A DNA stretch of 64,000 nt, taken from assembly GCF_964355755.1 (NCBI RefSeq), contig NC_092677.1, positions 10,500,101-10,564,100 of the forward strand, written 5' to 3'. Below are positions 41,201-63,902 of this stretch, in pieces. The stretch is from Antedon mediterranea. Lineage: Eukaryota; Animalia; Echinodermata. The number at the start of each line of letters is the position of its first letter. The first letter of the stretch is position 1. A program made the translations under genes and the position numbers. Under the pieces are notes generated by a model that worked only from the letters and a program-made list of their open reading frames with translations, was not told the origin of the DNA and did not search any database.

Positions 41201-44200
41201 GGTCAAGTAGCATAGTATTTTTTAACAGTTGAATTTAAATTCACTAAATGTCACATCAAAATTATTTTTGTGATGGCATTATTTTAATGTATAGTCAATG
41301 AAGTTAATGAGAAAAATAAATAATAAAAAACAGCTAAAAAATAATGCATATTACAAGCATATATTGTAGGTAAAGCTATAGAAAGGGTTTTCAGTACTGT
41401 ACAGCAGTTAGTAAAAGACACAAAGACTTACCAGTAGAACAGAAAGCTCCACTAAAACAGCCAGAACATTGGCAAGTGTAACCATCGCAAGTTGAACCTG
41501 TGGCTACGCACACAGCCCCATTTTGGCATGAATTATTTTCGCAGGCATCAGATACTATAACATAGTTTAAAAAACATTATTAATTTTATTACTTTATTAC
41601 AAACATATATTTTAGGCTCCACAATGTTGAATGGATGAAAAATATTCCCATTTTCAATTCATGATCATTCATTCAACACACATTTTAGTGAAAGGTTTGC
41701 AAACAAATTGATCAAATGAAGGTGGACGGTTAAACTAGTTTTTTGTTAATGATCAACTATAGAAAGATGTAAAACCTACGTGTTTGACAGAATTGGCCAC
41801 TATAGCACGTGGGGCAGTTGCATTGGTAAGTGGTACATCCACTGCCTACATTGGCACAGGCAGCACCATTCATACACTGATGATTGTCACAGGCAGAAAC
41901 AGCTACAAAATAGAGAAAATATAAAAACATTTGTTCAGATGCCATTTATAAACAATCTGTAACATGGTGGGACCAAACCCTATTAGTCACACAGGCTATT
42001 CACCCCTTACTATCCTCGATGCCTACATAACTTGGAACACTACATTCCTGAGGTGGGTCTTCCAAGTAAAGTAAATCAGGATGTGGTACCATTTAATTAT
42101 TCATCCTTCCTGTCCACTTAATATAAATATATATTTTGTAGTTAAGTTAGTTAGTTCGGGTATTGATTCTTGAGACTATCACATCAGTCAGAATCACTAC
42201 ATTTTCACATTGTTTTATAATCTTACTTTTGATTGAATAAATAGTATATTTTGTACATTGAATACTTTTGTGCCATCGTTATTGTCTATGCCCTCGACAC
42301 GACTACCGTTACACAATCATACACATTTACACTAATCTACACTATTACACCAAATCTTATATTTAAATAAAATTGTTTTTTTAGTTGGAACAAGCACTCA
42401 ACACTAAAATAAACAATGTATTTAGAAAATTATGTAAGATAGAAAAACATTGATAGTAAAAACAAATACAATAATTGTTTATTTTACAGTTGGTTAGTGT
42501 CAACTGTATGAAAAATAACTGAAACTCACATGTTTCACAGAATTGTCCAGTGTAGCAATTTGGACAAGAACATGTGTATGCTGTACAGGAACCAGAAACT
42601 TGGACACAACCACCTCCATTCTGACAAGCATTGTTAGAGCAAGCATTCAACACTGATAAAACAAACATGACATGAATTACACACATTGTGTACTAGACTA
42701 ATAAGAGTAACAATTTAGATTGACTATGAATAATGATATACAAGTAGAAAAGAAAATGAAACTCACAAGTTTCACAGAATGTTCCAGTATAACAATTTGG
42801 ACAAGAACATGTGTATGCTGTACAGGAACCAGAAACCTGGACACAAGCAGCTCCATTCTGACAAGCATTGTTAGAGCAAGCATTTAACACTGATAAAACA
42901 AACATGACATGAATTACACACATTGTGTACTAGACTAGGAAGAGTAACACTTTAGATTGACTATGAATAATGATATACAAGTAGAAATATAAATGAATTG
43001 AAACTCACAAGTTTCACAGAATTGTCCAGTGTAGCAATTTGGACAAGAACATGTGTATGCTGTACAGGAACCAGAAACCTGAACACAACCAGCTCCATTT
43101 TGACAAGCATTGTTATCACAAGCATTCAGTACTAAAATAACAAAACAATGTACTTAGAAAATATGTAACATAGAAACATCTAATATAAATTATAAAGTGT
43201 GAATAAAAATATACAAATCATTTTTGTTATAGTTGTTTAATCAACTGGATGCAATATGAATGAAACTTACAAGTTTCACAGAATTGTCCAGTGTAGCAAT
43301 TTGGACAGGTACATGTGTATGCTGTACAGGAACCAGAAACCTGGACACAACCAGCTCCATTCTGACAAGCATTGTTAGAGCAGGCATTCAACACTAAAAC
43401 ATGATGACGAAACAATAATAAGTAACAGAAAACACATGGCAAACTATTACAAACACTAATATTAAGAAAAGATAATTATATAGCAAAATTGCGATATATG
43501 AATCGTAATAGGAAATGTACTGTAGCTCCATTGTAAAAAGCACTGGATTAGTTCTCACTTTGCAAAATATGTACCATAGAATAAAAATAACAATAATAAT
43601 ATGAAAATAAAAGAGTTTATAAATGTTTATATAGATAAAGATGGCTTAGTGATCTGGAGGTCGTGGGGGTCGTGGGGGTCGAGTTCAACTTGAGAATTAC
43701 TTGCAAATATCATTGCAAGTATTTTCAAATGTACTTAGTATTTTGTCAGATTAATATTAATATTAATCTTTATCATATGATAACAATATTGACAAAAATA
43801 GTTAAGATATTTGTTAAATAAAATGTATTGGTATATATTGTTTATAACTATTAAGTAGAAAGATAAAGTTAACATAATTTACAAAATGAAACATAAAATA
43901 TGTAAAATTCATAAATTAACGAAACTTACAAGTTTCACAGAATGTTCCGGTGTAGCAGCCTGGACAAGAACATGTGTATGCTGTACAGGAACCAGCAACC
44001 TGGACACAAGCACCTCCATTCTGACAAGCGTTGTTGTCACAAGCATTCAACACTATATAAAAAATATTTCAAAATGTCAAATTTCAAACTATATTTTGAA
44101 ATAATGTAATTATCTATTTTGCTAATAACAATAAGCACAGCAATATTAAGTACTGCAAAAATATAAAAGATAAATGTTAAATATGCGAACATAAGAACTA

Positions 44201-47200
44201 GCATATAATACAAATATCAAGTGATTAACTTACAAGTTTCACAGAATTGTCCGGTGTAACATGATGGACAGGTACATGTGTATGCTGTACAGGAACCAGA
44301 AACCTGGACACAACCACCTCCATTCTGACAAGCATTGTTGGTACAAGCATTCAACACTAAATAATAAAACAATGTACTTAGAAAATATGTAACCGAAATC
44401 TTGTATTATGTATTGTCAATTTAGAATTGGTTATGAAGGATTTACAGTTGTTTAGTCAACTGTGTGAAAATAAATGAAACATACAAGTTTCGCAGAATTG
44501 TCCAGTATAACAGTTTGGACAAGAACATGTGTATGCTGTACAGGAACCAGAAACTTGGACACAACCAGCTCCATTCTGACAAGCATTGTTGGAACAAGCA
44601 TTCAATACTGGAATAACAAGAAATAATAAAATAATGCACAAATATGTAACATAGAAACATCTAATATAAAATATACTGGATGCAACATGAATGACACGTA
44701 CAAGTTTCACAGAATTGTCCAGTGTAACATGATGGACAAGAACATGTGTATGCTGTACAGGAACCAGAAACCTGGACACAACCAGCTCCATTCTGACAAG
44801 CATGGTTAGAGCAAGTATTCAACACTGATAAAACAAACATGACATGAATTACACACATTGTGTACTAGACTAAGAAGAGTAACAATTAAGAGTGAATTTG
44901 AGTAATGATATGTAAGTAGAAATGAAAATGAAAGTCAAAAGTTTCAAAGAATGTTCCAGTATAACAATTTGGACAAGAACATGTGTATGCTGTACAGGAA
45001 CCTGAAACCTGGACACAACCAGCTCCATTCTGACAAGCATTGTTGGAGCAGGCATTCAACACAGATAAAACAAACATGACATGAATTACACACTTTGTGT
45101 ACTAGACTAAGAAGAGTAACAATTTAGATTGACTATGAATAATGATATGCAAGTAGAAATATAAATGAATTGAAACTCACAAGTTTCACAGAATGTTCCA
45201 GTGTAACAATTTGGACAAGAACATGTGTATGCTGTACAGGAACCAGAAACCTGGACACAACCAGCTCCATTCTGACAAGCATGGTTAGAGCAAGCATTCA
45301 ACACTGATTAAACAAACATGACATGAATTACACACATTGTGTACTAGACTAAGAAGAGTAACAATTAAGAGTTACTATGAAAAATGATATGCAAGTAGAA
45401 ATGTAAATGATACTAACAAGTTTCACAAAATTGTCCAGTAAAACAATTTGGACAAGAGCATGTGTATGCTGTACAGGAACCAGAAACCTGGACACAACCA
45501 GCTCCATTTTGACAAGCGTTGTTGGAACAAGCATTCAACACTACCAATGCGTGGTAATTAATTTAAGCATAGTATTTGAAATCTTTTATAGTATTTTTAG
45601 TTTATAGGCCTACTCAATTAAAATAATAAATATGGACATATTTTTTGACTTACAAGTTTCACAAAATTGTCCAGTATAACATGATGGACAAGAACACGTA
45701 TATGCTGTACAGGAACCAGAAACCTGGACACAACCAGCTCCATTCTGACAAGCGTTGTTGGAACAAGCATTCAACACTGAAATAATAAAATAATGCACTT
45801 AGAAAATATGTAACATAGAAACATCTAAAATAAAATATACAGGATGCAACATGAATGAAACGTACAAGTTTCACAGAATTGTCCAGTGTAACATGATGGA
45901 CAAGAACATGTGTATGCTGTACAGGAACCAGAAACCTGGACACAACCAGCTCCATTCTGACAAGCATTGTTGGAGCAGGCATTCAACACTGATAAAACAA
46001 ACATGACATGAATTACACACATTGTGTACTAGACTAAGAAGAGTAACAATTTAGATTGACTATGAATAATGATATGCAAGTAGAAATATAAATGAATTGA
46101 AACTCACAAGTTTCACAGAATGTTCCAGTGTAACAATTTGGACAAGAACATGTGTATGCTGTACAGGAACCAGAAACCTGGACACAACCAGCTCCATTCT
46201 GACAAGCATTGTTGTCACATGCATTCAACACTGAAAAAAGCAAATATAAAATTATTTAAAATGTCACAGAATTTTTGTATTTCAAACTATTTAGAAATAA
46301 TGTAAATATCTATTTTGCTAATAACAATAAGCACAACAATATTAAGTACTGGAAAAAGATAAAAGATAAATGTTAAATATGCGAACATAAGAACTAGCAT
46401 ATAATACAAATATCAAGTGATTAACTTACAAGTTTCACAGAATTGTCCGGTGTAACATGATGGACAGGTACATGTGTATGCTGTACAGGAACCAGAAACC
46501 TGGACACAACCACCTCCATTCTGACAAGCATTGTTGGTACAAGCATTCAACACTAAATAATAAAACAATGTACTTAGAAAATATGTAACCGAAATCTTGT
46601 ATTATGTATTGTCAATTTAGAATTGGTTATGAAGGATTTACAGTTGTTTAGTCAACTGTGTGAAAATAAATGAAACTTACAAGTTTCGCAGAATTGTCCA
46701 GTATAACAGTTTGGACAAGAACATGTGTATGCTGTACAGGAACCAGAAACTTGGACACAACCAGCTCCATTCTGACAAGCATTGTTGGAACAAGCATTCA
46801 ATACTGAAATAATAAAATAATGCACAAATATGTAACATAGAAACATCTAATATAAAATATACTGGATGCAACATGAATTAAACGTACAAGTTTCACAGAA
46901 TTGTCCAGTGTAACATGATGGACAAGAAAATGTGTATGCTATACAGGAACCAGAAACCTGGACACAACCAGCTCCATTCTGACAAGCATGGTTAGAGCAA
47001 GCATTCAACACTGATAAAACAAACATGACATGAATTACACACATTGTGTACTAGACTAAGAAGAGTAACAATTAAGAGTGAATTTGAGTAATGATATGTA
47101 AGTAGAAATGAAAATGAAAGTCACAAGTTTCACAGAATGTTCCAGTATAACAATTTGGACAAGAACATGTGTATGCTGTACAGGAACCTGAAACCTGGAC

Positions 47201-50200
47201 ACAACCAGCTCCATTCTGACAAGCGTTGTTGGAGCAGGCATTCAACACAGATAAAACAAACATGACATGAATTACACACATTGTGTACTAGACTAAGAAT
47301 AGTAACAATTTAGATTGACTATGAATAATGATATGCAAGTAGAAATATAAATGAATTGAAACTCACAAGTTTCACAGAATGTTCCAGTGTAACAATTTGG
47401 ACAAGAACATGTGTATGCTGTACAGGAACCAGAAACCTGGACACAACCAGCTCCATTCTGACAAGCATGGTTAGAGCAAGCATTCAACACTGATAAAACA
47501 AACATGACATGAATTACACACATTGTGTACTAGACTAAGAAGAGTAACAATTAAGAGTTACTATCAAAAATGATATGCAAGTAGAAATGTAAATGATACT
47601 AACAAATTTCACAAAATTGTCCAGTAAAACAATTTGGACAAGAACATGTGTATGCTGTACAGGAACCAGAAACCTGGACACAACCAGCTCCATTTTGACA
47701 AGCGTTGTTGGAACAAGCATTCAACACTACCAATGCGTGGTAATTAATTTAAGCATAGTATTTGAAATCTTTTATAGTATTTTTAGTTTATAGGCCTAAT
47801 CAATTAAAATAATAAATATGGACATATTTTTTGACTTACAAGTTTCACAAAATTGTCCAGTATAACATGATGGACAAGAACACGTATATGCTGTACAGGA
47901 ACCAGAAACCTGGACACAACCAGCTCCATTCTGACAAGCGTTGTTGGAACAAGCATTCAACACTGAAATAATAGAATAATGCACTTAGGAAATATGTAAC
48001 ATAGAAACATCTAAAATAAAATATACTGGATGCAACATGAATGAAACATACAAATTTCACAGAATTGTCCAGTGTAACATGATGGACAAGAACATGTGTA
48101 TGCAGTACAGGAACTAGAAACCAGGACACAACCAGCTCCATTCTGACAAGCATTGTTAGAGCAAGCATTCAACACTGATAAAACAAACATGACATGAATT
48201 ACACACATTGTGTACTAGACTAAGAAGAGTAACACTTTAGATTGACTATGAATAATGATATGCAAGTAGAAATATAAATGAAACTTACAAGTTTCACAGA
48301 ATTGTCCAGTGTAACAATTTGGACAAGAACATGTGTATGCTGTACAGGAACCAGAAACCTGAACACAACCAGCTCCATTTTGACAAGCATTGTTATCACA
48401 AGCATTCAGTACTAAAATAACAAAAAAATGTACTTAGAAAATATGTAACATAGAAACATCTAATATAAAATATAAAGAGTGAATAAAAATATACAAATCA
48501 TTTTTTATATAGTTGTTTAGTCAACTGGATGCAATGCAACATGAATGAAACTTACAAGTTTCACAGAATTGTCCAGTGTAGCAATTTGGACAAGAACATG
48601 TGTATGCTGTACAGGAACCAGAAACCTGGACACAACCAGCTCCATTCTGACATGCATTGTTGGAGCAGGCATTCAACACTGAAACAACAAACATGACATG
48701 AATTACACACATTGTGTACTAGACTAAGAAGAGTAACAATTTAGAATGACTATGAATAATGATATACAAGTAGAAATGTAAATGAAACTCACAAGTTTCA
48801 CAGAATGTTCCAGTATAACAATTTGGACAAGAACATGTGTATGCTGTACAGGAACCAGAAACCTGGACACAACCAGCTCCATTCTGACAAGCATTGTTGG
48901 AGCAGGCATTCAACACTGAAACAAAAAACATGACATGAATTACACACATTGTGTACTAGACTAAGAATAGTAACAATTTAGATTGACTATGAATAATGAT
49001 ATGCAAGTAGATATGTAAATGAAACTCACAAGTTTCACAGAATTGTCCAGTGTAGCAATTTGGACAAGAACATGTGTATGCTGTACAGGAACCAGAAACT
49101 TGGACACAACCACCTCCATTCTGACAAGCATTGTTAGAGCAAGCATTCAACACTGATAAAACAAACATGACATGAATTACACACATTATGTACTAGACTA
49201 AGAAGAGTAACAATTTAGATTGACTATGAATAATGATATGCAAGTAGATATGTAAATGAAACTCACAAGTTTCACAGAATTGTCCAGTGTAGCAATTTGG
49301 ACAAGAACATGTGTATGCTGTACAGGAACCAGAAACCTGAACACAACCAGCTCCATTTTGACAAACATTGTTATCACAAGCATTCAGTACTAAAATAACA
49401 AAACAATGTACTTAGAAAATATGTAACATAGAAACATCTAATATAAAATATAAAGAGTGAATAAAAATATACAAATCATATTTGTTATTAGTTGTTTAAT
49501 CAACTGGATGCAATATGAATGAAACTTACAAGTTTCACAGAATTGTCCAGTGTAGCAATTTGGACAAGAACATGTGTATGCTGTACAGGAACCAGAAACC
49601 TGGACACAACCAGCTCCATTCTGACAAGCATGGTTAGAGCAAGCATTCAACACTGATAAAACAAACATGACATGAATTACACACATTGTGTACTAGACTA
49701 AGAAGAGTAACACTTTAGATTGACTATGAATAATGATATACAAGTAGAAATATAAATGAAACTCACAAGTTTCACAGAATGTTCCAGTATAACAATTTGG
49801 ACAAGAACATGTGTATGCTGTACAGGAACCAGAAACCTGGACACAAGCAGCTCCATTCTGACAAGCATTGTTAGAGCAAGCATTTAACACTGATAAAACA
49901 AACATGACATGAATTACACACATTGTGTACTAGACTAAGAAGAGTAACAATTAAGAGTGAATTTGAGTAATGATATGTAAGTAGAAATATAAATGAAACT
50001 AACAAGTTTCACAAAATGTTCCAGTATAACAATTTGGACAAGAACTTGTGTATGCTGTACATGAACCAGAAACCTGAATACAACCAGCTCCATTCTGACA
50101 AGCGTTGTTGGAGCAAGCATTCAACACTACCAATGCGTGGAAATTAATTTAAGCATAGTATTTGATATCTTTTATAGTATTTTTAGTTTATAATAGGCAT

Positions 50201-53200
50201 AATCAATTACATTTATCAATATGGACATATTTTTTGACTTACAAGTTTCACAGAATTGTCCAGTATAACATGATGGACAAGAACACGTGTATGCTGTACA
50301 GGAACCAGAAACCTGGACACAGCCAGCTCCATTCTGACAAGCATGGTTAGAGCAAGCATTCAACACTGATAAAACAAACATAACATGAATTACACACATT
50401 GTGTACTACACTAAGAAGAGTAACAATTTAGATTGACTATGAAAAATGATATACAAGTAGAAATGAAAATGAAACTCACAAGTTTCACAGAATGTTCCAG
50501 TATAACAATTTGGACAAGAACATGTGTATGCTGTACAGGAACCAGAAACCTGGACACAACCACCTCCATTCTGACAAGCATGGTTAGAGCAAGCATTCAA
50601 CACTGATAAAACAAACATGACATGAATTACACACATTGTGTACTAGACTAAGAAGAGTAACACTTTAGATTGACTATGAATAATGATATACAAGTAGAAA
50701 TATAAATAAAACTTACAAGTTTCACAGAATTGTCCAGTGTAACAATTTGGACAAGAACATGTGTATGCTGTACAGGAACCAGAAACCTGCACACAACCAG
50801 CTCCATTTTGACAAGCATTGTTATCACAAGCATTCAGTACTAAAATAACAAAACAATGTACTTAGAAAATATGAAACATAGAAACATCTAATATAAAATA
50901 TAAAGAGTGAATAAAAATATACAAATCATTTTTGTTATAGTTGTTTAATCAACTGGATGCAATATGAATGAAACTTACAAGTTTCACAGAATTGTCCAGT
51001 GTAGCAATTTGGACAAGAACATGTGTATGCTGTACAGGAACCAGAAACCTGGACACAACCAGCTCCATTCTGACAAGCATGGTTAGAGCAAGCATTCAAC
51101 ACTGATAAAACAAACATGACATGAATTACACACATTGTGTACTAGACTAAGAAGTGTAACAATTTAGATTGACTATGAATAATGATATACAAGTAGAAAT
51201 ATAAATGAAACTCACAAGTTTCACAGAATGTTCCAGTATAACAATTTGGACAAGAACATGTGTATGCTGTACAGGAACCAGAAACCTGGACACAAGCAGC
51301 TCCATTCTGACAAGCATTGTTAGAGCAAGCATTTAACACTGATAAAACAAACATGACATGAATTACACACATTGTGTACTAGACTAAGAAGTGTAACACT
51401 TTAGATTGACTATGAAAAATGATATGTAAGTAGAAATATAAATGAAACTAACAAGTTTCACAAAATGTTCCAGTATAACAATTTGGACAAGAACTTGTGT
51501 ATGCTGTACATGAACCAGAAACCTGAATACAACCAGCTCCATTCTGACAAGCGTTGTTGGAGCAAGCATTCAACACTACCAATGCGTGGAAATTAATTTA
51601 AGCATAGTATTTGATATCTTTTATAGTATTTTTAGTTTATAATAGGCATAATCAATTAAATTGATCAATATGGACATATTTTTTGACTTACAAGTTTCAC
51701 AGAATTGTCCAGTATAACATGATGGACAAGAACATGTGTATGCTGTACAGGAACCAGAAACCTGGACACAACCAGCTCCATTCTGACAAGCATTGTTATC
51801 ACAAGCATTCAGTACTAAAATAACAAAACAATGTACTTAGAAAATATGTAACATAGAAACATCTAATATAAAATATAAAGAGTGAATAAAAATATACAAA
51901 TCATTTTTGTTATAGTTGTTTAATCAACTGGATGCAATATGAATGAAACTTACAAGTTTCACAGAATTGTCCAGTGTAGCAATTTGGACAAGAACATGTG
52001 TATGCTGTACAGGAACCAGAAACCTGGACACAACCAGCTCCATTCTGACAAGCATGGTTAGAGCAAGCATTCAACACTGATAAAACAAACATGACATGAA
52101 TTACACACATTGTGTACTAGACTAAGAAGAGTAACACTTTAGATTGACTATGAACAATGATATACAAGTAGAAATATAAATGAAACTTACAAGTTTCACA
52201 GAATGTTCCAGTATAACAATTTGGACAAGAACATGTGTATGCTGTACAGGAACCAGAAACTTGGACACAACCACCTCCATTCTGACAAGCATTGTTGGTA
52301 CAAGCATTCAATACTGGAATAACAAGAAAGATAAATGGTTAAAAGAGATAAGTATAAATGTAGTTGTGCTATGTACAGTAGTTGTTTAAAACAATCGCAA
52401 TCGCAGAAACTTACAAGTTTCACAGAATTGTCCGGTATAACACGATGGACAGGTACATGTGTATGCTGTACAGGAACCAGAAACCTGGACACAGGTAGCT
52501 CCATTCTGACAAGCGCTGTTAGAACAAGCATTCAACACTGCAAAATATAGGAAATTATATGCATTCTTTACTTTCTAATCATCTTTGTTATGTTAAAAAA
52601 ATTTGATCCTTCTTTTGAGATGTAAAAGAATAAAGAATTACATAAACTTACAAGTTTCACAGAATTGTCCAGTGTAACAATTTGGACAAGAACATGTGTA
52701 TGCTGTACAGGAACCAGAAACCTGGACACAACCGCCTCCATTCTGACAAGCATTGTTATCACAAGCATTCAACACTGTAAAATAAAAGAAAAACATTTTT
52801 AAATCGTCGTTTTTTTTTTAATTATTACCATTGTTAATTAATTAGTAGATTATTTAATAGTATAACAAATGCAAGAAAAAGAGACACCACCAGCAATAAT
52901 ACTGAAAATGAATAAATGTAAAGAAGTATTATGTTGGACAAGTTTTCAGTAAAAATAACTCACATGTTTCACAAAATTGTCCAGTGTAACATGTTGGACA
53001 AGAACATGTGTATGCTGTACAGGAACCAGAAACCTGGACACAAAAAGCTCCATTCTGACAAGCATTGTTGGAGCAAGCATTCAACACTACCAATGCATGA
53101 GAATTTAAGCATAGCATATATAAAATCTTATATAGTATAGGTATTTTATAATAGGCCTGAAAAATTCATGCAATTCTGACAAGAATTATTCGAATCCATG

Positions 53201-56200
53201 GAAATTTAAGAATAGTATATTAAACCTATATGTAGGCCTACTAATTTAAATTTCTAAGTAACGACATAGGTTTAAACTCACATGTTTCGCAGAATTGTCC
53301 TGTATAACAATTTGGACAAGAACATGTGTATGCTGTACAGGAACCAGACACCTGGACACAACCAGCTCCATTCTGACAAGCATTGTTGGTACAAGCATTC
53401 AATACTGGAATAACAAGAAAGATAAAGTGGTTAAAAGAGATAAATATAAATGTAGTTGTGCTATGTACAGTAGTTGTTTAAAACAATCGCAGAAACTCAC
53501 AAGTTTCACAGAATTGTCCGGTATAACACGATGGACAGGTGCATGTGTATGCTGTACAGGAACCAGAAACCTGGACACAGGTAGCTCCATTCTGACAAGC
53601 GCTGTTAGAACAAGCATTCAACACTGCAAAATATAGGAAATTATATGCATTCTTTACCTTCTAATCATCTTTGTTATGTTAAAAAAAATTTGATCCTTTT
53701 TTTGAGATGTAAAAAAATAAAGAATTACAGAAACTTACAAGTTTCACAGAATGTTCCAGTATAACATGATGGACAAGAACATGTGTATGCTGTACAGGAA
53801 CCAGAAACCTGGACACAACCGCCTCCATTCTGACAAGCATTGTTATCACAAGCATTCAACACTGTAAAATAAAAGAAAAACATTTTTAAATTGTCATTGT
53901 TTTGTAATTATTACCATTGTTAATTAATTAGTATATTATTTAATAGTATAACAAATGCAAGAAAAAGAGACACCACCAGCAATAATACTGAAAATGAATA
54001 AATGTTAAGAAGTATTATATTGGACAAGTTTTCAGTAAAAATAACTCACATGTTTCACAAAATTGTCCAGTGTAACATGTTGGACAAGAACATGTGTATG
54101 CTGTACAGGAACCAGAAACCTGGACACAAAAGGCTCCATTCTGACAAGCATTGTTGGAACAAGCATTCAACACTACCAATGCATGGGAATTTAAGCATAG
54201 CATATATAAAATCTTATATAGTATAGGTATTTTATAATAGGCCTGAAAAATTCATGCAATTCTGACAAGAATTATTCGAGTCCATGGAAATTTAAGAATA
54301 GTATATTAAACCTATATGTAGGCCTACTAATTTAAATTTCTAAGTAACGACATAGGTTTAAACTCACATGTTTCGCAGAATTGTCCTGTATAACAATTTG
54401 GACAAGAACATGTGTATGCTGTACAGGAACCAGACACCTGGACACAACCAGCTCCATTCTGACAAGCATTGTTGGTACAAGCATTCAATACTGGAATAAC
54501 AAGAAAGATAAAGTGGTTAAAAGAGATAAATATAAATGTAGTTGTGCTATGTACAGTAGTTGTTTAAAACAATCGCAGAAACTCACAAGTTTCACAGAAT
54601 TGTCCGGTATAACACGATGGACAGGTGCATGTGTATGCTGTACAGGAACCAGAAACCTGGACACAGGTAGCTCCATTCTGACAAGCGCTGTTAGAACAAG
54701 CATTCAACACTGCAAAATATAGGAAATTATATGCATTCTTTACCTTCTAATCATCTTTGTTTGGTTTTAAAAATTTGATCCTTCTTTTGAGATGTAAAAG
54801 AATAAAGAATTACATAAACTTACAAGTTTCACAGAATGTTCCAGTATAACATGATGGACAAGAACATGTGTATGCTGTACAGGAACCAGAAACCTGGACA
54901 CAACCACCTCCATTCTGACAAGCATTGTTATCACAAGCATTCAACACTGTAAAATAAAAGAAAAACATTTTTAAATTGTCATTGTTTTGTAATTATTACC
55001 ATTGTTAATTAATTAGTAGATTATTTAATAGTATAACAAAAGCAAGAAAAAGAGACACCACCAGCAATAATACTGAAAATGAATAAATGTAAAGAAGTAT
55101 TATATTGGACAAGTTTTCAGTAAAAATAACTCACATGTTTCACAAAATTGTCCAGTGTAACATGTTGGACAAGAACATGTGTATGCTGTACAGGAACCAG
55201 AAACCTGGACACAAAAGGCTCCATTCTGACAAGCATTGTTGGAGCAAGCATTCAACACTACCAATGCATGGGAATTTAAGCATAGCATATATAAAATCTT
55301 ATATAGTATAGGTATTTTATAATAGGCCTGAAAAATTCATGCAATTCTGACAAGCATTATTCAAATCCATGGAAATTTAAGAATAGTATATTAAACCTAT
55401 ATGTAGGCCTACTAATTTAAATTTCTAAGTAACGACATAGGTTTAAACTCACAAGTTTCGCAGAATTGTCCAGTATAACAATTTGGACAAGAACATGTGT
55501 ATGCTGTACAGGAACCAGACACCTGGACACAACCACCTCCATTCTGACAAGCATTGTTGGTACAAGCATTCAATACTGGAATAACAAGAAAGATAAATGG
55601 TTAAAAGAGATAAATATAAATGTAATTGTGCTATGTACAGTAGTTGTTTAAAACAATTGCAGAAACTCACAAGTTTCACAGAATTGTCCGGTATAACACG
55701 ATGGACAGGTGCATGTGTATGCTGTACAGGAACCAGAAACCTGGACACAGGTAGCTCCATTCTGACAAGCGCTGTTAGAACAAGCATTCAACACTGCAAA
55801 ATATAGGAAATTATATGCATTCTTTACCTTCTAATCATCTTTTTGATGTTTTAAAAAATTTGATCCTTCTTTTGAGATGTAAAAGAATAAAGAATTACAT
55901 AAACTTACAAGTTTCACAGAATGTTCCAGTATAACATGATGGACAAGAACATGTGTATGCTGTACAGGAACCAGAAACCTGGACACAACCAGCTCCATTC
56001 TGACAAGCATGGTTAGAGCAAGCATTTAACACTGAAATAAAAAAAAACAATGTATTTTGGAAAAAATGTAAAATAGAAATATCTATTTAAAAAATATAAC
56101 ATGTGAAGAAAAACATAAAATCATTTATAGTTGTTTAGTCAACTGAATAAAACAAAAATGAAACTTACAGGTTTCACAGAATGTTCCAGTGTAACATGAA

Positions 56201-59200
56201 GGACAGGCACATGTGTATGCTGTACAGGAACCAGAAACCTGGATACAATTAGCTCCATTCTGGCAAGCATGGCTGGAACAGGCATTCAACACTGAGTATA
56301 TGCAAAAAGTTATTATAATTATTGTATCAATATACATAACATAAAAACGAAGCCAAAATGTGTAATCTTTACCTGAAATTCTTAAAGAGTAATTGTGTTA
56401 AAACATATATGTACTATCTTTAATCATAAATCTATAGTGCCACAGTTTCTGTAAAATGCTAATTATATAACAAACTTGGTTTAGGTCTAACTCTAATACC
56501 AATGCTGGCACAATTGAACTTACAAGTTTCACAAAATTGTCCAGTGTAGCAATTTGGACAAGAACATGTGTATGCTGTACAGGAACCAGAAACCTGGACA
56601 CAACCAGCTCCATTCTGACAAGCATTGTTGGTACAAGCATTCAATACTTGAATAACAAGAAAGATAAGGGCGTTAAAAGAGATAAATATAAATGTAATTA
56701 CGTTTCATGTTCAAACCAAATAGTAGGACCTTCTGGTAATTATGTTATCACAGATCGTATTACGTGCACCACTAGAAATCTAGTTTATTGTATTTCGTGT
56801 ACTAAATGTAATATGCTTTATATTGGTGAAACTAAACGCAGGTTAGGTGATTCTAAAGACTCCCGGATTACCTATAGCCACCCATTTTTGTAATAATGAG
56901 CATTCCCTTTCGGATATTACAATTTCTGGTGTTAAAGTATGTAATTGTTCTGAGACATCTCGTAGAATTATAGAAGAAAGAATAATTGTAAAGCTTGGCA
57001 CTCTTGCCCCTACCGGCATAAATGTACAATTTAGATCCTTTAAACATTAATTTTGCCAGAGACATTCACATATTAACAATTATTTACACTTGAAGCTTTT
57101 GTCTTTGTTTTAAATTTCCTGCTTTATAAGCAACCATTCCTGCTTTGTACCCCATAGCTTTTGGAGGCGTGCCTTTATAACTATGCCTTTTGTTTGTTAA
57201 CATCTTTGATTGGCTGATTTGTTTTATTATGTAATTTTGTGACTTATATATGTTATCCTTTGTTACAATTCTTTTCACCTGATGATGGGCTATGCCCGAA
57301 ACATGTCGTTAAAATAAATCTATATTGAGGCAGTTTTAACTTATTTGACCTTGTTTTTTTTCTATATCCTGCCTATGCAGCTCTTTGATTTATAAATATA
57401 AATGTAGTTGTGCTATGTACAGTAGTTGTTTAAAACAATCGCAGAAACTCACAAGTTTCACAGAATTGTCCGGTATAACACGATGGACAGGTGCATGTGT
57501 ATGCTGTACAGGAACCAGAAACCTGGACACAGGTAGCTCCATTTTGACAAGCGCTGTTCGAACAAGCATTTAACACTGATAAAATACAGAGAGTAATATG
57601 TAATCTGTTGAAATATTTTGAAACATTTGTGGCTGAATGATAACACATCTTTTGTGATTTAACCGGTTCTACTCTCAAGATAATCTGGGGTTATTTTTAA
57701 TAAACTTCACAAATCATAAATAAAAAAAAAAAGTGAATACAAATAAATAAATTATCAGTTTTTACAGTTATTTAGTCAATTGTACAGAAGAAACTTACAA
57801 GTTTCACAGAATTGCCCTGTATAACACGATGGGCAGGCACATGTGTATGCTGTACAGGAACCAGAAACCTGGACACAACCAGCTCCATTCTGACAAGCAT
57901 TGCTGGTACAAGCATTTAATACTGTAAGGAAAATGCAAAATTAAAGTGAAATGTCCCCAATATAAAACAGAAAATTTATATTATAAATGTTTACTTTTAC
58001 TGCTACATTAGTCGATTTATCAGACACCATCATCTAAAATTTTAACAATTATAAATGAAAACTTACATGTTTCACAGAATTGTCCAGTGTAGCAATTTGG
58101 ACAAGAACATGTGTATGCTGTACAGGAACCAGAAACCTGGAGACAACCAGCTCCATTCTGACAGGCATTGTTATCACAAGCATTCAATACTAAAAAAAAA
58201 ACAATGATATGAACACACTAACATGAAGAGATTGATATAATTATAAAACGTTGTTGTTATATAGCACTTGATGCACAAAGCGCTTCACATTATAATTCTC
58301 TGGTAATTTTTGATCAAATATATATAGAAAAATGCTTCCATAATGTTGTAACTAGTAATCAGCTCAGCCTATGCTTTGACCTTACCAGGTACCCATTTGT
58401 ACACCTGCTAGGGGAGAATTAAATGTAAGTAAAGTGTCTTGCCTAAGGACACAAGCAATGCGACAAGGATTGGATTCCCATTCCCGATCAGAAGGCCACA
58501 CGCTCTCACACATATATTGACACACAAGCCAGCCTCAGAGTAGATAGATGGAAAACTAAGAAACTTACAATCTTTCATAGAACTTACATGTTTCGCAATA
58601 TCGACCAGTATAACATGATGGACATGTACATGTGTAAAGCTCACATGAACCAGAAACCTGGACACAAGCAGCTCCATTCTGACAAGCATGAGTGGTACAA
58701 GCATTCAACACTATTAAGAAAACACGAATTTAGACACAATGTTTATGTAGAAGCAATTAAAATATTTGAATATTAATATTAATGTTTTACATACAACTGA
58801 TTCTTAAAAAACCATTACTTTTTCGCTCTCTACTACTGGAGAAAAGTAGAACTATTATTATTACTACGTTGTATGATTTACACTTAACAACAATTTACAT
58901 CAAAATCCTGTACATTAAAGACAAAAATAAAGAGTGAAATAGTGATATGGAGCCAACCAAGAAGAAATTGATTTGATTTGGACACATGACTTACACCATA
59001 GTGGGTAAAGATACTATTGACTATGCATTATTAGTTGGTGATGAAAACATTGAAACTTACAAGTTTCACAAAATTGCCCTGTATAACATGATGGACAGGC
59101 GCATGTGTATGCTGTACAGGAACCAGAAACCTGGACACAACCAGCTCCATTCTGACAAGCATTGCTGGAACAAGCATTCAATACTGAAATAAAACAGTAT

Positions 59201-62200
59201 GTAAAAACAAATGCATTGATTTACTATAATTCTATTAACATATCCACTATAGAAATTAAAACTCACAAGTTTCACAAAATTGCCCTGTATAACAAGATGG
59301 ACAGCTACATGTGTATGCTGTACAGGAACCAGAAACCTGGACACAACCAGCTCCATTCTGACAAGCATTGTTATTACAAGCATTCAACACTGAAATAAAT
59401 ATTAGAAAACAGTAAAAATACATACTAAATATATTGTGGTTAGCTGATTAAAATATCAAAATATTATATAGATAAAAATAGAACCTTACAAGTTTCGCAG
59501 AATGTTCCAGTATAACAGTTTGGACAAGAACATGTGTATGCTGTACAGGAACCAGAGACCTGGACACAAGCACCACCATTCTGACAAGCATTGTTGTTAC
59601 ATGCATTCAACACTGTGAAAAAAGTAAGAAAATATCTAAGTTAAATATAGAAATAATTGAACTGAAATGACTACTGTGAACAAATCAAATATGATACAAC
59701 AAACAAAGATGAAAATAGAATCTTACAAGTTTCACAGAATGTTCCAGTGTAACAAGTTTGACAGGTACATGTGTATGCTGTACAGGAACCAGAAACCTGG
59801 ACACATCCAGCTCCATTCTGGCAAGCATTGTTGGTACAAGCATTCAACACTGAAATAATATTAGAAAACAGTAAAAGTACATATTAAATATATTGTGGTT
59901 AGCTGATTAAAATGTTAAAATATTATATAGATAAAAATAGAATCTTACAAGTTTCGCAGAATGTTCCAGTGTAACAAGTTTGACAGGTACATGTGTATGC
60001 TGTACAGGAACCAGAAACCTGGACACAACCAGCTCCATTCTGACAAGCATTGTTGGTACAAGCATTCAACACTGCAATAGTTACAAATTATTTTGTTAAC
60101 AAGAAACATAGGGGTAAATAAAACAGGTAAATATAAATCTATTTGTCCTATCGTTGTTGGAAAAAATACACCAACGTAATGCAACCGACGCAACATAAGA
60201 AAATGTCTTTCCAATAAATGTGTTTGCCTCCACGTGCGTGAAATCAAACCTGCTTGTTGCGCGTCAAAGTTAGCATTCAGTAGACTTTGACCCCGCATAC
60301 TTTTGTGTATGCGCCGTACTATGTTTTTTTGTCTTGCATTGTGTTGGTTAATAATAATAATATCCTGGATTTATATAGCACCTAATGTTGTGAAACCTCT
60401 AAGCGCTGAACATTATTACCCCAATCATTTTTTGGATCAAACACGTATGGAAACATACTCCCATAATGCAGCTAGTAATCAGCGCAAAGTTGTGTCTTGA
60501 TCTAACCAGGTACCCATTTATACACCTGGGTGGAGAGAGGCAAACCTAAGTAAAGTATCTTGCCTAAGGATACAAGCAATGTAGCAAGAGTTGGATTCGA
60601 ACCTCGATCTCACGATCAGTTGTCCAACGTCCGACACACTGCGCAGGCCCGTAGCCAGGGGGGGTTTTTATGGTTCGGGCGAACCCCCCTTTACAGCGAA
60701 CCCCCCTTAACCAACTGCGAACCCCCATCCCCGACATGCCCAATACCTCACCCTCATCTCCAAAAATCCTCCAAATACGTGCCCCACAGCACAAAAAGTT
60801 GTTTGTAAATTGAAAAATTCGTAAACTTGTTCGTGAACCTTCTTCTCTGTATGAGCGTCAACTAGTGATACGTGTCTGTAAATTTCTAAAAGCTGCAAAT
60901 GAATTGCCGATTTTAACCTGAAAAATAAATGTTTGGTCCCTGCATGTAACATGATATTGACGCGTCTCATAGCGAGCTGGCGCACGAACGATTCGTACAA
61001 AGGACACCGCCAGACAAACTGCGTACCTATAATTGTTTAGATCACTGGCAGTCAGGCAGCATGCATAAAGTATATAGCCTTCCGACGTACATCAGTATTT
61101 ATGTGTGACTATGAAGTATAATGTATCATAGAGGATTATAGTGAATATTAATATTTTACACTATAATATCTATGGTATCAAGTACTGTAGTTCACATTAT
61201 GGCATCCGATTATTTTTTTCTAGACCACCAGTCGATACGTACTAAAATGTATCAATATCACCTATTTACATATTTATATTCCTCAACAAATTTCTGTAAA
61301 TAAATATTATAGATAGAGCTATCAAATAGCATTTGCCTTCGCCCAGTGTGCTTTTTTCGGGGCTGCTCCTAGATATACGTTCGCATTGAACTTGAACGCA
61401 AAACAAAATACGGAGTAAATGATCAAACAATCGGCAGTCCCGCACAGAGCACGCGCATCTAACATACGGCAACAAATAGTTATCGTCATTTAAATTATCG
61501 ACGTGTTTGAGGAGGAGGAAAAAAGTACGATCTTTTTGCTCATTGGTTATATAGCATGCTGCACGAGAGTGTCTTTTCCGGCCATCTAGGGGTGTCATTT
61601 AACAAAATTCGCTTCGCATCAGGCTGGGGGAGGGGGAAGGGGGGGGGGGGGGGTTGACCCAAATATTTAGTGTCCGAACCCCCCCTTGACAGATCCTGGC
61701 TACGGCCCTGCTGCGCCACATGCCCACTTATGATTACGCAATACAAGACTTTGCTTTGTGTTCTAGTAAGAACCACGCTTTAGATGACAATGGAACAAGT
61801 AAAAGAAATAGAAAATTGTAAAACAACCTACATGTTTCACAGAATTGTCCAGTATAACATGATGGGCAAGAACATGTGTATGCTGTACAGGAACCAGAAA
61901 CCTGGACACAAGCAGCTCCATTCTGACAAGTACTGGTTTCACAAGCATTTATCACTTAAATAATAAATATTTACCAAAAATTAACAATATTCTGGCGGAA
62001 AGATTTAAATACTAAAAACATACTTGACTATTTAATCAAAATTATGCATAGACCTAATTTATATAGTATAAACATTTGAGAAAACGATTGAAATAACAAA
62101 TACACTTACATTCATCACAAAAGTTTCCTCGATAGCAAGTTGGACAACTACAGGCATATGTTACACAGCTTCCATCGATCCCAGTACATCCAGCTCCGTT

Positions 62201-63902
62201 GGCACATTGATTACCATCACAGGCATTTATTACTGCAATAAACATGTAATACATTCCTAAAATTCCATGGTAATCTTGATAGAAGATATAGACGTACTGG
62301 GCAACTAAATAGCTCACTACTAGTTATTATATATTTTTTTTCTTATGCCAAAGCCCTAAAGTTAATTTGTTACTCTATGATATTTATATTGGATAGCAGG
62401 CGGTAAGTGCCCCTTAAATCAAACCATAGAAAACAGGGCATCATGCTGACATCCCTGCTCAACGCTTACGCGATTATGCTTTTGAATTAGCACCTTCCAT
62501 AACAGAATTGTTTAATAGTGCATTAAAACAAGGAATTTTCAAAGATATTTTAAAAAATAAATTCAGCCTTGTATTGGTCTCCGGAATTATTGGAGATACT
62601 GATTTCAATGACCTCCACCGTTAGCAAGACATTTTAGATATTTGAGAATAATTAGATGGTACCCGTCTATTGGTTGACGGGTAATATTATTAATACTTTA
62701 TGCTCAAACACAATGTTTTAAAATAAGTCTCTTGATTCTAGGATATTGTATTCTACTTACAAGCTTCACAAAATTGTCCAGTGTAACATGATGGACAAGA
62801 ACACGTGTATGCTGTACAGGAACCAGCAACCTGGACACAACCACCTCCATTCTGGCAAGCATGGTTAGAACAAGCATTCAACACTGATAAAAAAAACATG
62901 ACATGAATTACACACATTGTGTACTAGACTAAGAAGAATAACAATTTAGATTGACTATGAATAATGGTATACAAGTAGAAATGAAAATAAAACTCACAAG
63001 TTTCACAGAATGTTCCAGTATAACATGATGGACAAGAACATGTGTATGCTGTACAGGAACCAGAAACCTGAACACAACCAGCCCCATTCTGACAAGCATT
63101 ATTAGAGCAAGCATTCAACACTGAAACAAAAACAATATAAACAATGGGTATCATAAACAATGGGTATCATAAGCATTCAGCAATGCAATAATAATAAATA
63201 TGAAAAAACAATCAACAAAGCCAGATAAAATTGAAATATAAATGTATTCTTTTTATGTACATCATTAAGATGAAGAATGGACAACCAAAGAAACTCACAA
63301 GTTTCACAGAATTGTCCAGTGTAACATGATGAACAAGAACATGTGTATGCTGTACAGGAACCAGAAACTTGGACACAACCAGCTCCATTCTGACAAGCAT
63401 GGTTAGAGCAAGCATTCAACACTGTTAAAACAAACATGACATGAATTACACACATTGTGTACTAGACTAAGAAGAGTAACAATTTAGATTGACTATGAAT
63501 AATGATATACAAGTAGAAATGAAAATGAAACTCACAAGTTTCACAGAAAGTTCCAGTGTAACATGATGGACAAGAACATGTGTATGCTGTACAGGAACCA
63601 GAAACCTGGACACAACCAGCTCCATTCTGGCAAGCGTTGTTGCTACAAGCATTCAACACTAACATAGAGAAACATTAAAAAACAAATTGATAACAGACAA
63701 ACATTAAACAATTAGACACATTGTAAACCAGACTCCTTTATAATGAGTATACGTTCTTTAAGAAAAACTGGGATCTTACAAGTTTCACAGAATGTTCCAG
63801 TGTAACATGATGGACAAGTACATGTGTATGCTGTACAGGAACCAGAAACCTGGACACAAAATGCTCCATTCTGACAAGCGTTGTTGTTACATGCATTCAA
63901 TA
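26016..63902 (-). CDS. Giant multi-EGF type I membrane protein (fibropellin/Notch-like EGF repeats); 3' portion only, 5' end lies beyond the window
   Basis: About 89 single-EGF phase 1-1 exons plus a terminal TM exon. Proximal exons: 26016-26227 (TM and tail), 26629-26748, 27342-27449, 28680-28790, 29226-29336, 30449-30568, 31078-31191, 31462-31578, 31849-31977, 32347-32460, 35341-35463, 36108-36221, 36839-36994, 37491-37664, 38172-38306, 40131-40262, 40989-41117, 41432-41554, 41780-41902; then ~71 123-nt exons from 42530-42652 to 63780-63902. No ankyrin, LNR, DSL or avidin domain seen. Confidence 0.88.
27153..27308. mobile_element. ~140-bp MITE family copy
   Basis: ACCTCTGTCCACACTATCAAA...TTTGATAGTGTAGACAGAACT. 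Confidence 0.7.
28221..28595. mobile_element. 375-bp MITE with perfect 33-bp TIRs (Harbinger-like)
   Basis: AGCCGATTTTCCACTAGGCGAATTTGTTCGCGC at 28221-28253 and its exact reverse complement at 28563-28595; flanks TAA / TCA. Confidence 0.85.
28680..28790 (-). CDS. Half-EGF exon (4 Cys) ending in a furin/proprotein convertase site
   Basis: [37 protein letters not shown]; intact AG/GT, 111 nt, phase 1-1. Confidence 0.8.
29653..29793. mobile_element. ~140-bp MITE family copy (further partial copies at ~32177-32285 and ~37935-38043)
   Basis: TTA-AGCTCTGTCTACATTATCAAA...TTTGATAGTGTAGACAGAGGT-TAA. Confidence 0.75.
30112..30155 (-). ncRNA. Minimal type I hammerhead ribozyme (Penelope-associated)
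   Basis: Minus strand TTGCA CTGATGA A GGG ctagtgtactta TCC GAAA GC TC TGCAA: conserved core boxes, perfect stem I (TTGCA/TGCAA), palindromic AGCT stem III, NUH site CUC. Confidence 0.75.
30838..31060. mobile_element. 223-bp MITE with 14-bp TIRs and 3-bp (ATT) target duplication
   Basis: TGTCGTATTCGATT...AATCGAATACGACA; the paralogous introns at ~31447 and ~31834 show the empty site AACATTAATGAC. Confidence 0.8.
31078..31970 (-). repeat. 387-bp tandem exon+intron duplication (6-Cys [22 protein letters not shown]), plus a diverged copy at 30449-30837
   Basis: Near-identical exon and intron sequence with period 387 (31191, 31578, 31965). Confidence 0.9.
32558..34932 (+). mobile_element. Non-autonomous Helitron-like element with internal ~300-bp direct duplication
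   Basis: 5' A|TCTATATATAAAT; 3' GC-rich hairpin CTAGATGGTACGC..GCGTGCCATCTAG (34896-34932) ending CTAG|T; ~32833-33136 repeated at ~33595-33965. Confidence 0.65.
38372..38899. mobile_element. Kolobok-like non-autonomous DNA transposon
   Basis: TIR AGATGTATTGTCCCT / AGGGACAATACATCT; flanks ATAA and TTAA (degenerate TTAA target). Confidence 0.65.
39421..39530 (+). mobile_element. Degenerate 3' end of the same Penelope-like family as 56697-57391
   Basis: GAGGCAGTTTTAAC.TATTTGA...TATCCTGCCTATGCAGCTCTTT matches 57327-57386; decayed hammerhead CTGATG..CCCGAAAG at 39425-39444. Confidence 0.65.
39894..40098. repeat. 65-bp tandem repeat, 3 copies
   Basis: AAAAGAAGCCTGCCACATCCCCCACCCTCTCCCCACTTCAGTTTGCAAAAGTAAAGGTAATCTC; GCCTG at 39901, 39966, 40031. 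Confidence 0.92.
40570..40760 (-). mobile_element. tRNA-derived SINE remnant (Meta-domain-like core)
   Basis: CCCCTACTCTTTTCAAATAGTGT..TTCTTTAACATGCAC..GTAAAGCATCTTGCCTAAGG..CTCGAACCC (reverse-complement B box). Confidence 0.5.
44939..45061 (-). pseudogene. Dead EGF exon (acceptor AG>TG, donor GT>TT, C6>F)
   Basis: Plus strand reads TTCAACACAGATAAA instead of TTCAACACTGATAAA, and AAAGTCAAAAGTTTCAAAG instead of ..TCACAAGTTTCACAG. Confidence 0.8.
47125..47247 (-). pseudogene. Probable dead EGF exon (acceptor AG>TG), paralogue of 44939-45061
   Basis: Same TTCAACACAGATAAA lesion 2186 bp away; donor and cysteines still intact. Confidence 0.7.
56697..57391 (+). mobile_element. 5'-truncated Penelope-like retroelement (GIY-YIG endonuclease remnant plus 3' UTR) in an intron of the EGF array
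   Basis: [29 protein letters not shown], then frameshifted [26 protein letters not shown]; 15-bp TSD ATAAATATAAATGTA at 56682-56696 and 57392-57406; empty site in paralogous introns (e.g. ~54527). Confidence 0.88.
57272..57314 (+). ncRNA. Minimal type I hammerhead ribozyme in the Penelope 3' end
   Basis: TTTTCAC CTGATGA T GGGC TAT GCCC GAAAC AT GTC GTTAAAA: core boxes, 4-bp stem II, palindromic ACATGT stem III, GUC cleavage triplet 57305-57307, stem I 6/7 paired. Confidence 0.8.
58255..58500 (-). mobile_element. tRNA-derived SINE (Deu/Nin-domain-like), degenerate
   Basis: TTATATAGCAC..AAGCGCT..CCAGGTACCCATTTGTACACCTG..GTAAAGTGTCTTGCCTAAGGACACAA; same family as 60350-61728. Confidence 0.6.
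60350..61728 (-). mobile_element. tRNA-derived SINE (Deu/Nin-domain-like), split by a DNA transposon
   Basis: (AAT)n tail, CCAGGTACCCATTTATACACCTGGGTGGAGAGAGG core, rc B box GGATTCGAACC at ~60592-60603; the head resumes after 61710 (CTGCGCCACATGCCC). Confidence 0.7.
60644..61710. mobile_element. 1067-bp non-autonomous hAT-like element with 5-bp TSD
   Basis: TIRs CAGGCCCGTAGCCAGG / CCTGGCTACGGCCCTG, subterminal CGAACCCCCC motifs, TSD CTGCG at 60639-60643 and 61711-61715. Confidence 0.8.

What the first reader, a model, noticed from the sequence alone, without database searches (positions are those of the whole stretch)
42530..63902. Expandable exon-cassette array: ~71 near-identical frame-neutral EGF exons in one gene (candidate length- and isoform-variable surface or matrix protein system)
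Seen: over 21 kb, running off the window edge, of 123-nt phase 1-1 exons separated mostly by 85-230-nt introns that are themselves copied. Variation is concentrated at about six positions (C-[S/D/T/N]-N-[N/H/S]; NG-[A/G]-[G/A/F/T]; P-[N/S/T]; G-[Q/T]) that reassort between copies, as expected from gene conversion and unequal crossover. Any subset of exons can be skipped, gained or lost in frame. With all exons included, this window alone encodes roughly 3,700 aa. Inference: either (a) a constitutive giant rod whose length varies by allele, like a molecular ruler or VERL/EBR1-type concertedly evolving recognition repeat, or (b) a Dscam-like splicing diversifier. Near-identity of the exons favours (a). 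This is the best candidate for an undescribed system in the window.
Basis: partly seen in the sequence, partly recalled or inferred. Interest (0 to 1): 0.88.

Follow-up and report, generated by a model that had tools for sequence, protein, structure and literature searches.

The report
Feather-star hyalin relative, giant EGF stalk
At least 71 near-identical small exons, copied together with their introns, sit in one gene with a spliced transcript, likely of a feather star, and likely build a very long stalk on a membrane-anchored, probably shed surface protein related to the hyalin-like proteins of sea urchins and sea stars, which lengthen the same region with other repeats.

Summary
Observation confirmed: 71 exons of 123 nt (phase 1-1, minus strand, 42530-63902), each encoding an 8-cysteine EGF; 69 of 71 keep AG/GT; 53 of 70 introns have a copy at 85% or more; higher-order units of 1.1, 1.45 and 2.2 kb. 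With 19 downstream exons they give one open 3,734-aa frame ending in an RRRR site, two EGFs, a transmembrane helix and a short tail. That 3' part is colinear with uncharacterised 'hyalin-like' membrane proteins of sea stars, urchins, brittle stars and an acorn worm. These carry about four divergent 8-Cys EGFs and expand HYR or another EGF instead; here the first 8-Cys EGF was amplified, and no HYR lies in the window. A spliced contig matches the 3' model, and four joints link array exons to each other, which argues against Dscam-type one-of-N choice. Repeats are as close to Anneissia repeats as to each other, which argues against a VERL/EBR1-type species badge. Best reading: a length-variable extracellular stalk grown by unequal crossing-over and conversion; function, tissue and allele length are untested. 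New variant of a known kind.

The parts
42530..63902 (-). Array of 71 phase 1-1 exons of 123 nt, each one 8-cysteine EGF (40 aa plus junction Leu); probably continues 5' beyond the window
   Evidence: EGF fold
52183..56049 (-). Higher-order repeat: four-exon unit of about 1,090 bp, about 3.5 copies, 97.2% identical over 2,788 bp
   Evidence: (intron families C,D,G,H)
48787..51827 (-). Higher-order duplication, offset 1,450 bp, 96.0% identical; carries the two Cys-to-Ser exons 51575-51453 and 50126-50004 (donor GTTAGT)
43911..48424 (-). Higher-order duplication, offset 2,177 bp, 95.8% identical; carries the two exons without an acceptor
47125..47247 (-). Array exon 54: acceptor reads TG, not AG; nearest upstream AGs 40 and 45 nt away; likely skipped
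44939..45061 (-). Array exon 63: acceptor TG, donor TT, last Cys lost; likely pseudo-exon
62110..62232 (-). Divergent 8-Cys EGF exon inside the array (array exon 6), scores equally with ancestral slots -4 and -5
40131..41902 (-). Four divergent EGF exons (41902-41780, 41554-41432, 41117-40989: 8 Cys; 40262-40131) at ancestral cassette positions -4 to -1
   Evidence: (spliced contig)
36839..38306 (-). Three family-diagnostic EGF exons (38306-38172, 37664-37491, 36994-36839)
   Evidence: best hits among 381 fetched EGF-rich proteins are family members (72%, 49-54%, 48% identity); spliced in record 20
29226..36221 (-). Eight ordinary 6-Cys EGF exons, including a small recent triplication (31977-31078, period 387 bp, 98% matches)
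   Evidence: model; AG/GT intact
28680..28790 (-). Truncated EGF followed by RRRR-D, a predicted furin-type cleavage site conserved in relatives
26629..27449 (-). Two membrane-proximal EGF exons (27449-27342, acceptor choice uncertain; 26748-26629)
26016..26227 (-). Last coding exon: transmembrane helix (19-residue hydropathy 2.92), short tail ending DEVALIQ, stop codon
   Evidence: relatives end DEVAIIR, DEVAIVQ, DEIPIMQ

Best explanation
The array is the repeat region of one gene with a spliced transcript, likely of a feather star, that is predicted to encode a giant single-pass membrane protein of the echinoderm/acorn-worm hyalin-like family, and it likely acts as a long extracellular stalk that is probably shed at a furin-type site. 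Shown: exon structure, open 3,734-aa frame, spliced 3' exons, array-to-array joints, colinearity of the 3' core with the family, purifying selection. Inferred: one ancestral 8-Cys EGF exon (cassette position -5) was amplified by unequal crossing-over of exon-plus-intron units, first singly and then as blocks of 4-9 exons, with gene conversion keeping exons alike even where introns are unrelated. Most mRNAs would carry many repeats, giving a disulfide-rich rod above 200 nm if extended (about 2.5-3 nm per EGF, recalled). Dead and weak exons would drop out in frame, and length would vary by allele and by cassette skipping. The cut ectodomain would join an apical matrix (cuticle, glycocalyx or egg/embryo coat), holding an unseen N-terminal head (EGF-CUB in relatives) away from the cell.
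For: Colinear core, RxRR-D site, TM and tail shared with P0205, P0231, P0279, P0187, P0284, P0306, P0304, P0318, P0327 and Saccoglossus P0191. In the 13 relatives examined the 8-Cys EGFs occupy four slots (mutual identity about 45-54%); 68 of 71 array exons score best with slot -5. Relatives expand other modules upstream of the same core: 38 of 49 regex-found HYR units in Asterias P0380 and 32 of 37 in Patiria P0304 have a partner at 90% or more (4 of 8 proteins tested show this, 4 do not), and P0191 has 7 near-identical 6-Cys EGFs. An exchangeable module suggests length matters more than sequence. Database isoforms of relatives often differ in steps of 84 aa, one HYR. Spliced contig offsets 279, 540, 675 and 849 match the model exactly. 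Four joints between array exons have canonical ends; two match consecutive pairs and one is within 2 mismatches of one. pN/pS is about 0.32. Fourfold sites differ by only 12.5% between exons whose flanking introns are unrelated.
Against: No functional, tissue or protein data. The 5' end, signal peptide and head are outside the window. The number of repeats per mRNA was not measured: a junction type present four times in the array has contig depth 254, no higher than the 283 of single-copy 3' exons, which could mean 3' bias, contig fragmentation or heavy skipping. No HYR or CUB in the window (HYR tested), so the link to hyalin proper is indirect. The repeat consensus is conserved in Anneissia (86% mean, up to 97%), more than a passive spacer needs. 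No crinoid orthologue was found. The run is only guessed to be RNA by the tool.
Confidence: 0.62

Rival explanations
1. The repeats are themselves the working surface: a multivalent binding or self-assembling adhesive or matrix polymer in which each 8-Cys EGF binds a ligand or a neighbour, so copy number sets avidity rather than reach.
For: Consensus and the same variant vocabulary occur in five Anneissia repeats; purifying selection; tandem EGF proteins are common in echinoderm adhesives (PMC9382459 passages); hyalin has multiple cell-binding sites on its filament (PMC2289348 abstract).
Against: Relatives use HYR or a different EGF in the same region; the repeat is nearly uncharged and lacks the calcium-binding consensus (recalled consensus; composition); the sea-star footprint proteins were not shown to be homologues.
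Confidence: 0.16
2. The expansion is largely neutral: a frame-neutral exon multiplied by recombination in a tolerant extracellular region, kept open only by weak selection against misfolding.
For: 2 of 71 exons are dead and 4 lost a cysteine; nested recent block duplications; transposon-like inserts in several introns; similar arrays noted by this scan in shark, ray and octopus genes (unchecked).
Against: No stop or frameshift in 71 of 71 exons; 67 of 71 keep all eight cysteines; pN well below pS; independent expansions next to the same core in several lineages.
Confidence: 0.1
3. VERL/EBR1-type gamete or self-recognition repeat that is homogenised within a species and diverges between species.
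For: Within-gene homogenisation and reassortment; hyalin-labelled genes are over-represented in introgressed regions of Strongylocentrotus (PMC11212366 passages); an EBR1-like protein shows positive selection in HYR domains (PMC5521101 passage).
Against: Anneissia-to-window identity (0.856) equals Anneissia-to-Anneissia (0.849) and is close to window-to-window (0.888), whereas EBR1's homogenised repeats share no significant identity between species (PMC13672419 passages). Only 5 repeats from a non-orthologous model were compared.
Confidence: 0.07
4. Dscam-like diversifier: one exon, or few, chosen per mRNA to give a recognition repertoire.
For: 45 distinct peptides from combinatorial variants; one RNA joint fits a skip of two exons; low array junction depth.
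Against: Array exons are spliced to each other; shortest intron 83 nt; no complementarity to the downstream intron (9.17 vs 8.92 +/- 0.32 nt in shuffles) and no shared intron motif beyond AT-rich words in at most 12 of 27 intron lineages; variants are few and conservative. An upstream docking site could not be tested.
Confidence: 0.03
5. Assembly artefact: a few exons expanded by mis-assembly.
For: No whole genome is held for this window; the best DNA holders may be the source sample.
Against: 59 distinct exon sequences, 27 intron lineages, block copies only 96-97% identical; a second organism holds the locus, and its contig over the 3.5-copy unit has about three times single-copy depth (622 vs 204-218; weak).
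Confidence: 0.02

Closest known systems
Uncharacterised echinoderm HYR/EGF membrane proteins labelled hyalin, hyalin-like or mucin-like (Asterias rubens XP_033626662.1 and XP_033625680.1, Lytechinus variegatus 'hyalin isoform X45' XP_041472953.1, Patiria XP_038068280.1, Amphiura XP_072051694.1)
   Same: Same ordered EGF core, truncated EGF plus RxRR-D site, membrane-proximal EGFs, TM helix and tail motif; giant size; in several members a near-identical repeat stalk.
   Different: They have about four divergent 8-Cys EGFs and tens of HYR domains; this gene has at least 71 homogenised 8-Cys EGFs, plain EGFs where they have the second HYR block, and no HYR in the window.
Saccoglossus kowalevskii XP_006818169.1 (partial)
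   Same: Same core, RRRR-D site, TM; no HYR by Pfam; near-identical EGF array (7 copies seen) upstream of the core.
   Different: A 6-Cys EGF of a different position is amplified; a CUB follows the cleavage site.
Anneissia japonica XP_033111997.1 (adhesion GPCR G7-like, partial)
   Same: Five copies of the same 8-Cys repeat, 85-97% best identity to window repeats.
   Different: Annotated on a 7TM receptor, without the hyalin-like core; may be a paralogous use or a mis-joined model.
Sea-urchin hyalin (hyaline layer protein)
   Same: Large filamentous extracellular adhesion protein built from repeats; the database gives its name to one relative.
   Different: Described as consisting of HYR repeats (PMC9382459 passage); none in this window; localisation here unknown.
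Drosophila Dumpy; mammalian tenascin EGF and tenascin-X repeats; sea-urchin EBR1; abalone VERL
   Same: Giant extracellular proteins with repeats homogenised by unequal crossing-over or conversion; Dumpy is also membrane-anchored and alternatively spliced (PMC2930355 passages).
   Different: Unrelated cores; Dumpy's homogenised repeats lie in one large exon; EBR1 has 6-9 homogenised units; here each of 71 or more repeats is its own exon.

Membership tests
EGF-like domain | Six-cysteine pattern and EGF fold | tested here: met
   Pfam EGF 16.7 bits, below the 21.5 cut-off; profile hits Notch/Delta EGFs in PDB; model pLDDT 82, Foldseek probability 1.0, TM 0.77-0.81, E only 3e-3 or weaker
EGF-like domain | Extra cysteine pair forms a fourth disulfide | not testable with these tools
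   Both extra Cys are kept in 71 of 71 exons; the tool gives no coordinates
Calcium-binding EGF arrays (Notch, fibrillin, fibropellin type) | Acidic calcium-binding consensus before Cys1 and D/N after Cys3 (recalled) | tested here: not met
   Linker is T-L-L-N-A and Cys3 is followed by V-Q; no EGF_CA hit
Ambulacrarian hyalin-like EGF/HYR membrane proteins (unnamed family) | Ordered core: 8-Cys EGFs, then three diagnostic EGFs | tested here: met
Ambulacrarian hyalin-like EGF/HYR membrane proteins (unnamed family) | Truncated EGF plus RxRR-D site, membrane-proximal EGFs, TM, D/E-E-hydrophobic tail | tested here: met
   a basic site in 13 of 14 relatives listed; tails such as DEVAIIR, DEVAIVQ against DEVALIQ here
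Ambulacrarian hyalin-like EGF/HYR membrane proteins (unnamed family) | Signal peptide, EGF, CUB at the N terminus | not testable with these tools
   5' end lies outside the window; no genome held
Hyalin in the strict sense | HYR repeats | tested here: not met
   HYR profile from 60 of 89 family repeats finds nothing in six frames of the window (best E 1.7; controls score 67-1080 bits); the 5' part is unseen
Hyalin in the strict sense | Cortical-granule release and hyaline-layer localisation | not testable with these tools
   no tissue data
Dscam-type mutually exclusive exon cluster | Variant exons are never spliced to each other | tested here: not met
   four array-to-array joints with canonical ends
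Dscam-type mutually exclusive exon cluster | Docking/selector complementarity | tested here: inconclusive
   none with the downstream intron; upstream intron not in the window
VERL/EBR1-type concerted recognition repeat | Homogeneous within the gene | tested here: met
VERL/EBR1-type concerted recognition repeat | Divergent between species | tested here: not met
   0.856 between vs 0.849 and 0.888 within; 5 repeats of a non-orthologous model only
VERL/EBR1-type concerted recognition repeat | Egg-surface expression and sperm binding | not testable with these tools
   no tissue label on the run

The most novel reading that the evidence does not exclude
This gene exposes an ambulacrarian 'swappable stalk' system: one ancient furin-shed membrane protein family, which may include the true full-length hyalin, whose stalk has been rebuilt independently from HYR (sea stars, urchins), a 6-Cys EGF (acorn worm) and an 8-Cys EGF (this crinoid), always as frame-neutral cassette exons, so that coat thickness is tuned both by allele and by regulated exon skipping over tens of nanometres.
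Probability: 0.25. Interest if true: 0.75.

Novelty: new variant of a known kind. Interest (0 to 1): 0.5.

Why it matters
It places an unannotated giant gene in a family that databases mislabel and that I found no paper describing, and shows that lineages built its long region from different modules, a natural test of whether length or sequence is selected. It suggests that proteins labelled hyalin are made as membrane-anchored precursors with a furin-type site, which is testable in sea urchins. The 21-kb array with short introns, nested block duplications and dead exons is small enough for single long reads, so rates of unequal crossing-over, exon-restricted conversion and in-frame skipping can be measured directly. 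It is not a new kind of diversifier: homogenised exon arrays are known.

Tried and rejected
No whole genome is held, so the 5' end and paralogues could not be read. No RNA holder was listed on record; one run is guessed RNA. Contig depth along the array was not used to count exons per transcript or copies. The joint 58636-58067 at depth 283.1 is read as the spliced 3' contig laid on the wrong copies because its true exons lay outside that stretch. A search with the diagnostic exon 36840-36992 found no candidate of 91-2000 aa, and the best 120 of 545 hits for 1731-5511 aa held no crinoid orthologue; both are weak negatives. Among 381 fetched proteins the longest run of 8-Cys EGFs by regex was 4 (the regex misses some, and P0017 has 5). 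The Atlas gave only generic EGF clusters. The recombination signal by distance is modest (neighbour incompatibility 0.526 vs 0.602, p 0.026), and recurrent mutation may add to it. Glycosylation toggling is minor: 5 of 71 repeats have an O-fucose-type site, 3 an O-glucose-type site, none an N-glycan sequon (recalled consensus). Notch, fibrillin, fibropellin and adhesion-GPCR identities were rejected for the window gene: no such domains, and one TM exon with a stop. Ten paper searches found no description of this gene or family; the library lacks most subscription papers, and the supplement of PMC9382459, which might list homologous footprint proteins, could not be read. No complex prediction was run.

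Full report
Observation. A six-frame motif scan and a blastn with one exon found 71 copies of a 123-nt exon on the minus strand from 63902 to 42530. None has a stop; 69 have AG and GT; exon 54 (47247-47125) lacks AG and exon 63 (45061-44939) lacks both and has lost a cysteine; 4 of 71 have seven cysteines. Each encodes a 40-aa EGF with eight cysteines. Pfam scores it below cut-off, but a profile of 13 exons hits Notch and Delta EGFs in the PDB and the model (pLDDT 82) matches EGF folds. Mean identity is 88.6% in DNA; pS 0.240 and pN 0.078 over 59 distinct sequences (non-independent pairs). 64 of 70 introns are 83-232 nt and 53 of 70 fall into 10 families.

How it grew. Intron families recur in blocks, and self-alignment gives units with offsets of 1,091 bp (97.2%), 1,450 bp (96.0%) and 2,177 bp (95.8%): the signature expected from unequal crossing-over (inferred). 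Both acceptor-less exons sit at matching places of the 2,177-bp duplication. All 21 of 21 pairs among seven variable residues show four combinations, and neighbouring sites are slightly more compatible than shuffled ones (p 0.026). Fourfold sites differ by 5.5% between exons with related flanks (86 pairs) and only 12.5% with unrelated flanks (1,839 pairs), while most singleton introns have best partners of about 54-63%. That points to conversion confined to exons, or to codon constraint.

The gene. Nineteen further exons with intact splice sites continue the frame to a stop at 26016; the 90-exon model is open for 3,734 aa. It ends in a truncated EGF with RRRR-D, two EGFs, a transmembrane helix and the tail DEVALIQ. 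In run X8 (guessed RNA) one 1,607-nt contig lies in pieces on exons 41117, 38306, 37664 and 36994 with offsets that match the model exactly, leaving 278 nt in front for two exons plus 32 nt of the last array exon; intronic pieces of that run have depth 3-6 against 283. In the array, 4 of the 14 joints listed link one array exon's end to another's start with canonical ends; most others lie in intronic repeats. Two match consecutive pairs, one is within two mismatches of a consecutive pair, and one has no consecutive match over 30 nt and fits a skip over exons 54-55 or 63-64, the dead exon and its neighbour; with a 20-nt short side and another individual, this is only a hint. A second organism holds the locus at about 2% substitution (21 of 1,156 nt).

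Relatives. The closest repeat match is Anneissia japonica XP_033111997.1 (88%), so the window is likely a crinoid; a neighbouring Ig protein of the window is alone in its 90% cluster on a 28.6-Mb contig, unlike the short Anneissia contigs, so a different species is likely (inferred). The 3' part is colinear with giant proteins of sea stars, urchins, brittle stars and Saccoglossus, named hyalin, hyalin-like, mucin-like or uncharacterised. Their layout is EGF-CUB-(HYR)n-EGF core-(HYR)m-cleavage site-EGFs-TM. In 13 members the core has four 8-Cys slots; 68 of 71 array exons score best with the first. No HYR lies in the window. The echinoderm relatives expand HYR instead, near-identically in 4 of 8 proteins tested, with database isoforms often differing by 84 aa; the acorn-worm member expands a 6-Cys EGF. 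A profile search of 1.84 billion representatives gave no protein with a long array of this repeat among the best 150.

Mechanism. Most likely (0.62) a membrane-anchored, furin-shed stalk whose length is set by repeat number and trimmed by in-frame skipping; cleavage, rod shape, tissue and allele variation are inferred, not shown. Rivals: multivalent binding by the repeats (0.16), neutral expansion (0.10), species-specific recognition (0.07; Anneissia repeats are as close to these as to each other), Dscam-type choice (0.03, and no docking signal), artefact (0.02). The main result against the best reading is that a junction type present four times has depth 254, not a multiple of 283; contigs cannot settle this.

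Literature. Seen as passages: PMC2930355 (dumpy: about 40 homogenised repeats, TM, alternative splicing), PMC2267704 (tenascin EGF homogenisation, citing Hughes 1999, which I did not read), PMC13672419 (EBR1 repeats 97-100% within, no identity between species), PMC8830517, PMC11212366 (21 hyalin-labelled genes in S. purpuratus), PMC5521101, PMC9382459 and PMC7037938 (EGF and hyalin domains in adhesives), PMC10381214 (no mention of hyalin). Abstract only: PMC2289348 (hyalin a 75-nm filament with a head). Ten searches found no description of this gene or family. Dscam features, calcium-binding and glycosylation consensus motifs, the furin motif and EGF length are recalled. Earlier scan notes of similar EGF exon arrays in shark, ray and octopus are unchecked but suggest the phenomenon recurs.

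Verdict. Real and striking, but a new variant of a known kind: a homogenised one-exon-per-domain array in a recognisable, uncharacterised family. The interest lies in the module swap across lineages and the link to hyalin. Interest 0.5.

Noticed in passing
P0187, P0205, P0231 (fetched proteins): Proteins that databases call hyalin or hyalin-like end in an RxRR-D site and a TM helix, so hyalin may be made as a membrane precursor and shed; whether XP_041472953.1 is the characterised hyalin was not tested.
   Followed up: partly
P0017 (Anneissia XP_033111997.1): Five copies of the same 8-Cys repeat annotated at the front of an adhesion GPCR: either exon shuffling into a receptor or a mis-joined model.
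   Followed up: partly
window 61916-63863, run X8 (table 5c): Contigs at depth 66-110 carry related exon starts with a different linker that is absent from the window, pointing to more repeat types upstream or in a paralogue.
   Followed up: no
window 23260-24823: Two arrays of a 16-bp repeat in inverted orientation (arms 23261-23418 and 24666-24823, 85% complementary, 1.25 kb apart): a foldback/MITE-like element downstream of the gene.
   Followed up: partly
window 15888-18443 (-): Uninterrupted 851-aa frame with endonuclease and reverse-transcriptase domains (non-LTR retrotransposon), apparently inside an intron of the methyltransferase gene.
   Followed up: partly
window 12600-21200 (+): Multi-exon methyltransferase gene (Pfam Methyltransf_11 hit); reads like phosphoethanolamine N-methyltransferase (label recalled, not tested).
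   Followed up: partly
window 5850-10160 (+): Exon-like frames that resemble a HERPUD-type ER protein (recalled; two frames gave no Pfam hit).
   Followed up: no
window 1103-2248 (-): Single-frame 381-aa membrane protein with three Ig domains, present in the protein collection and alone in its 90% cluster.
   Followed up: partly
window 31061-31970 (-): A second, small and recent exon triplication (387-bp period, 98% matches) of a plain EGF in the same gene.
   Followed up: partly
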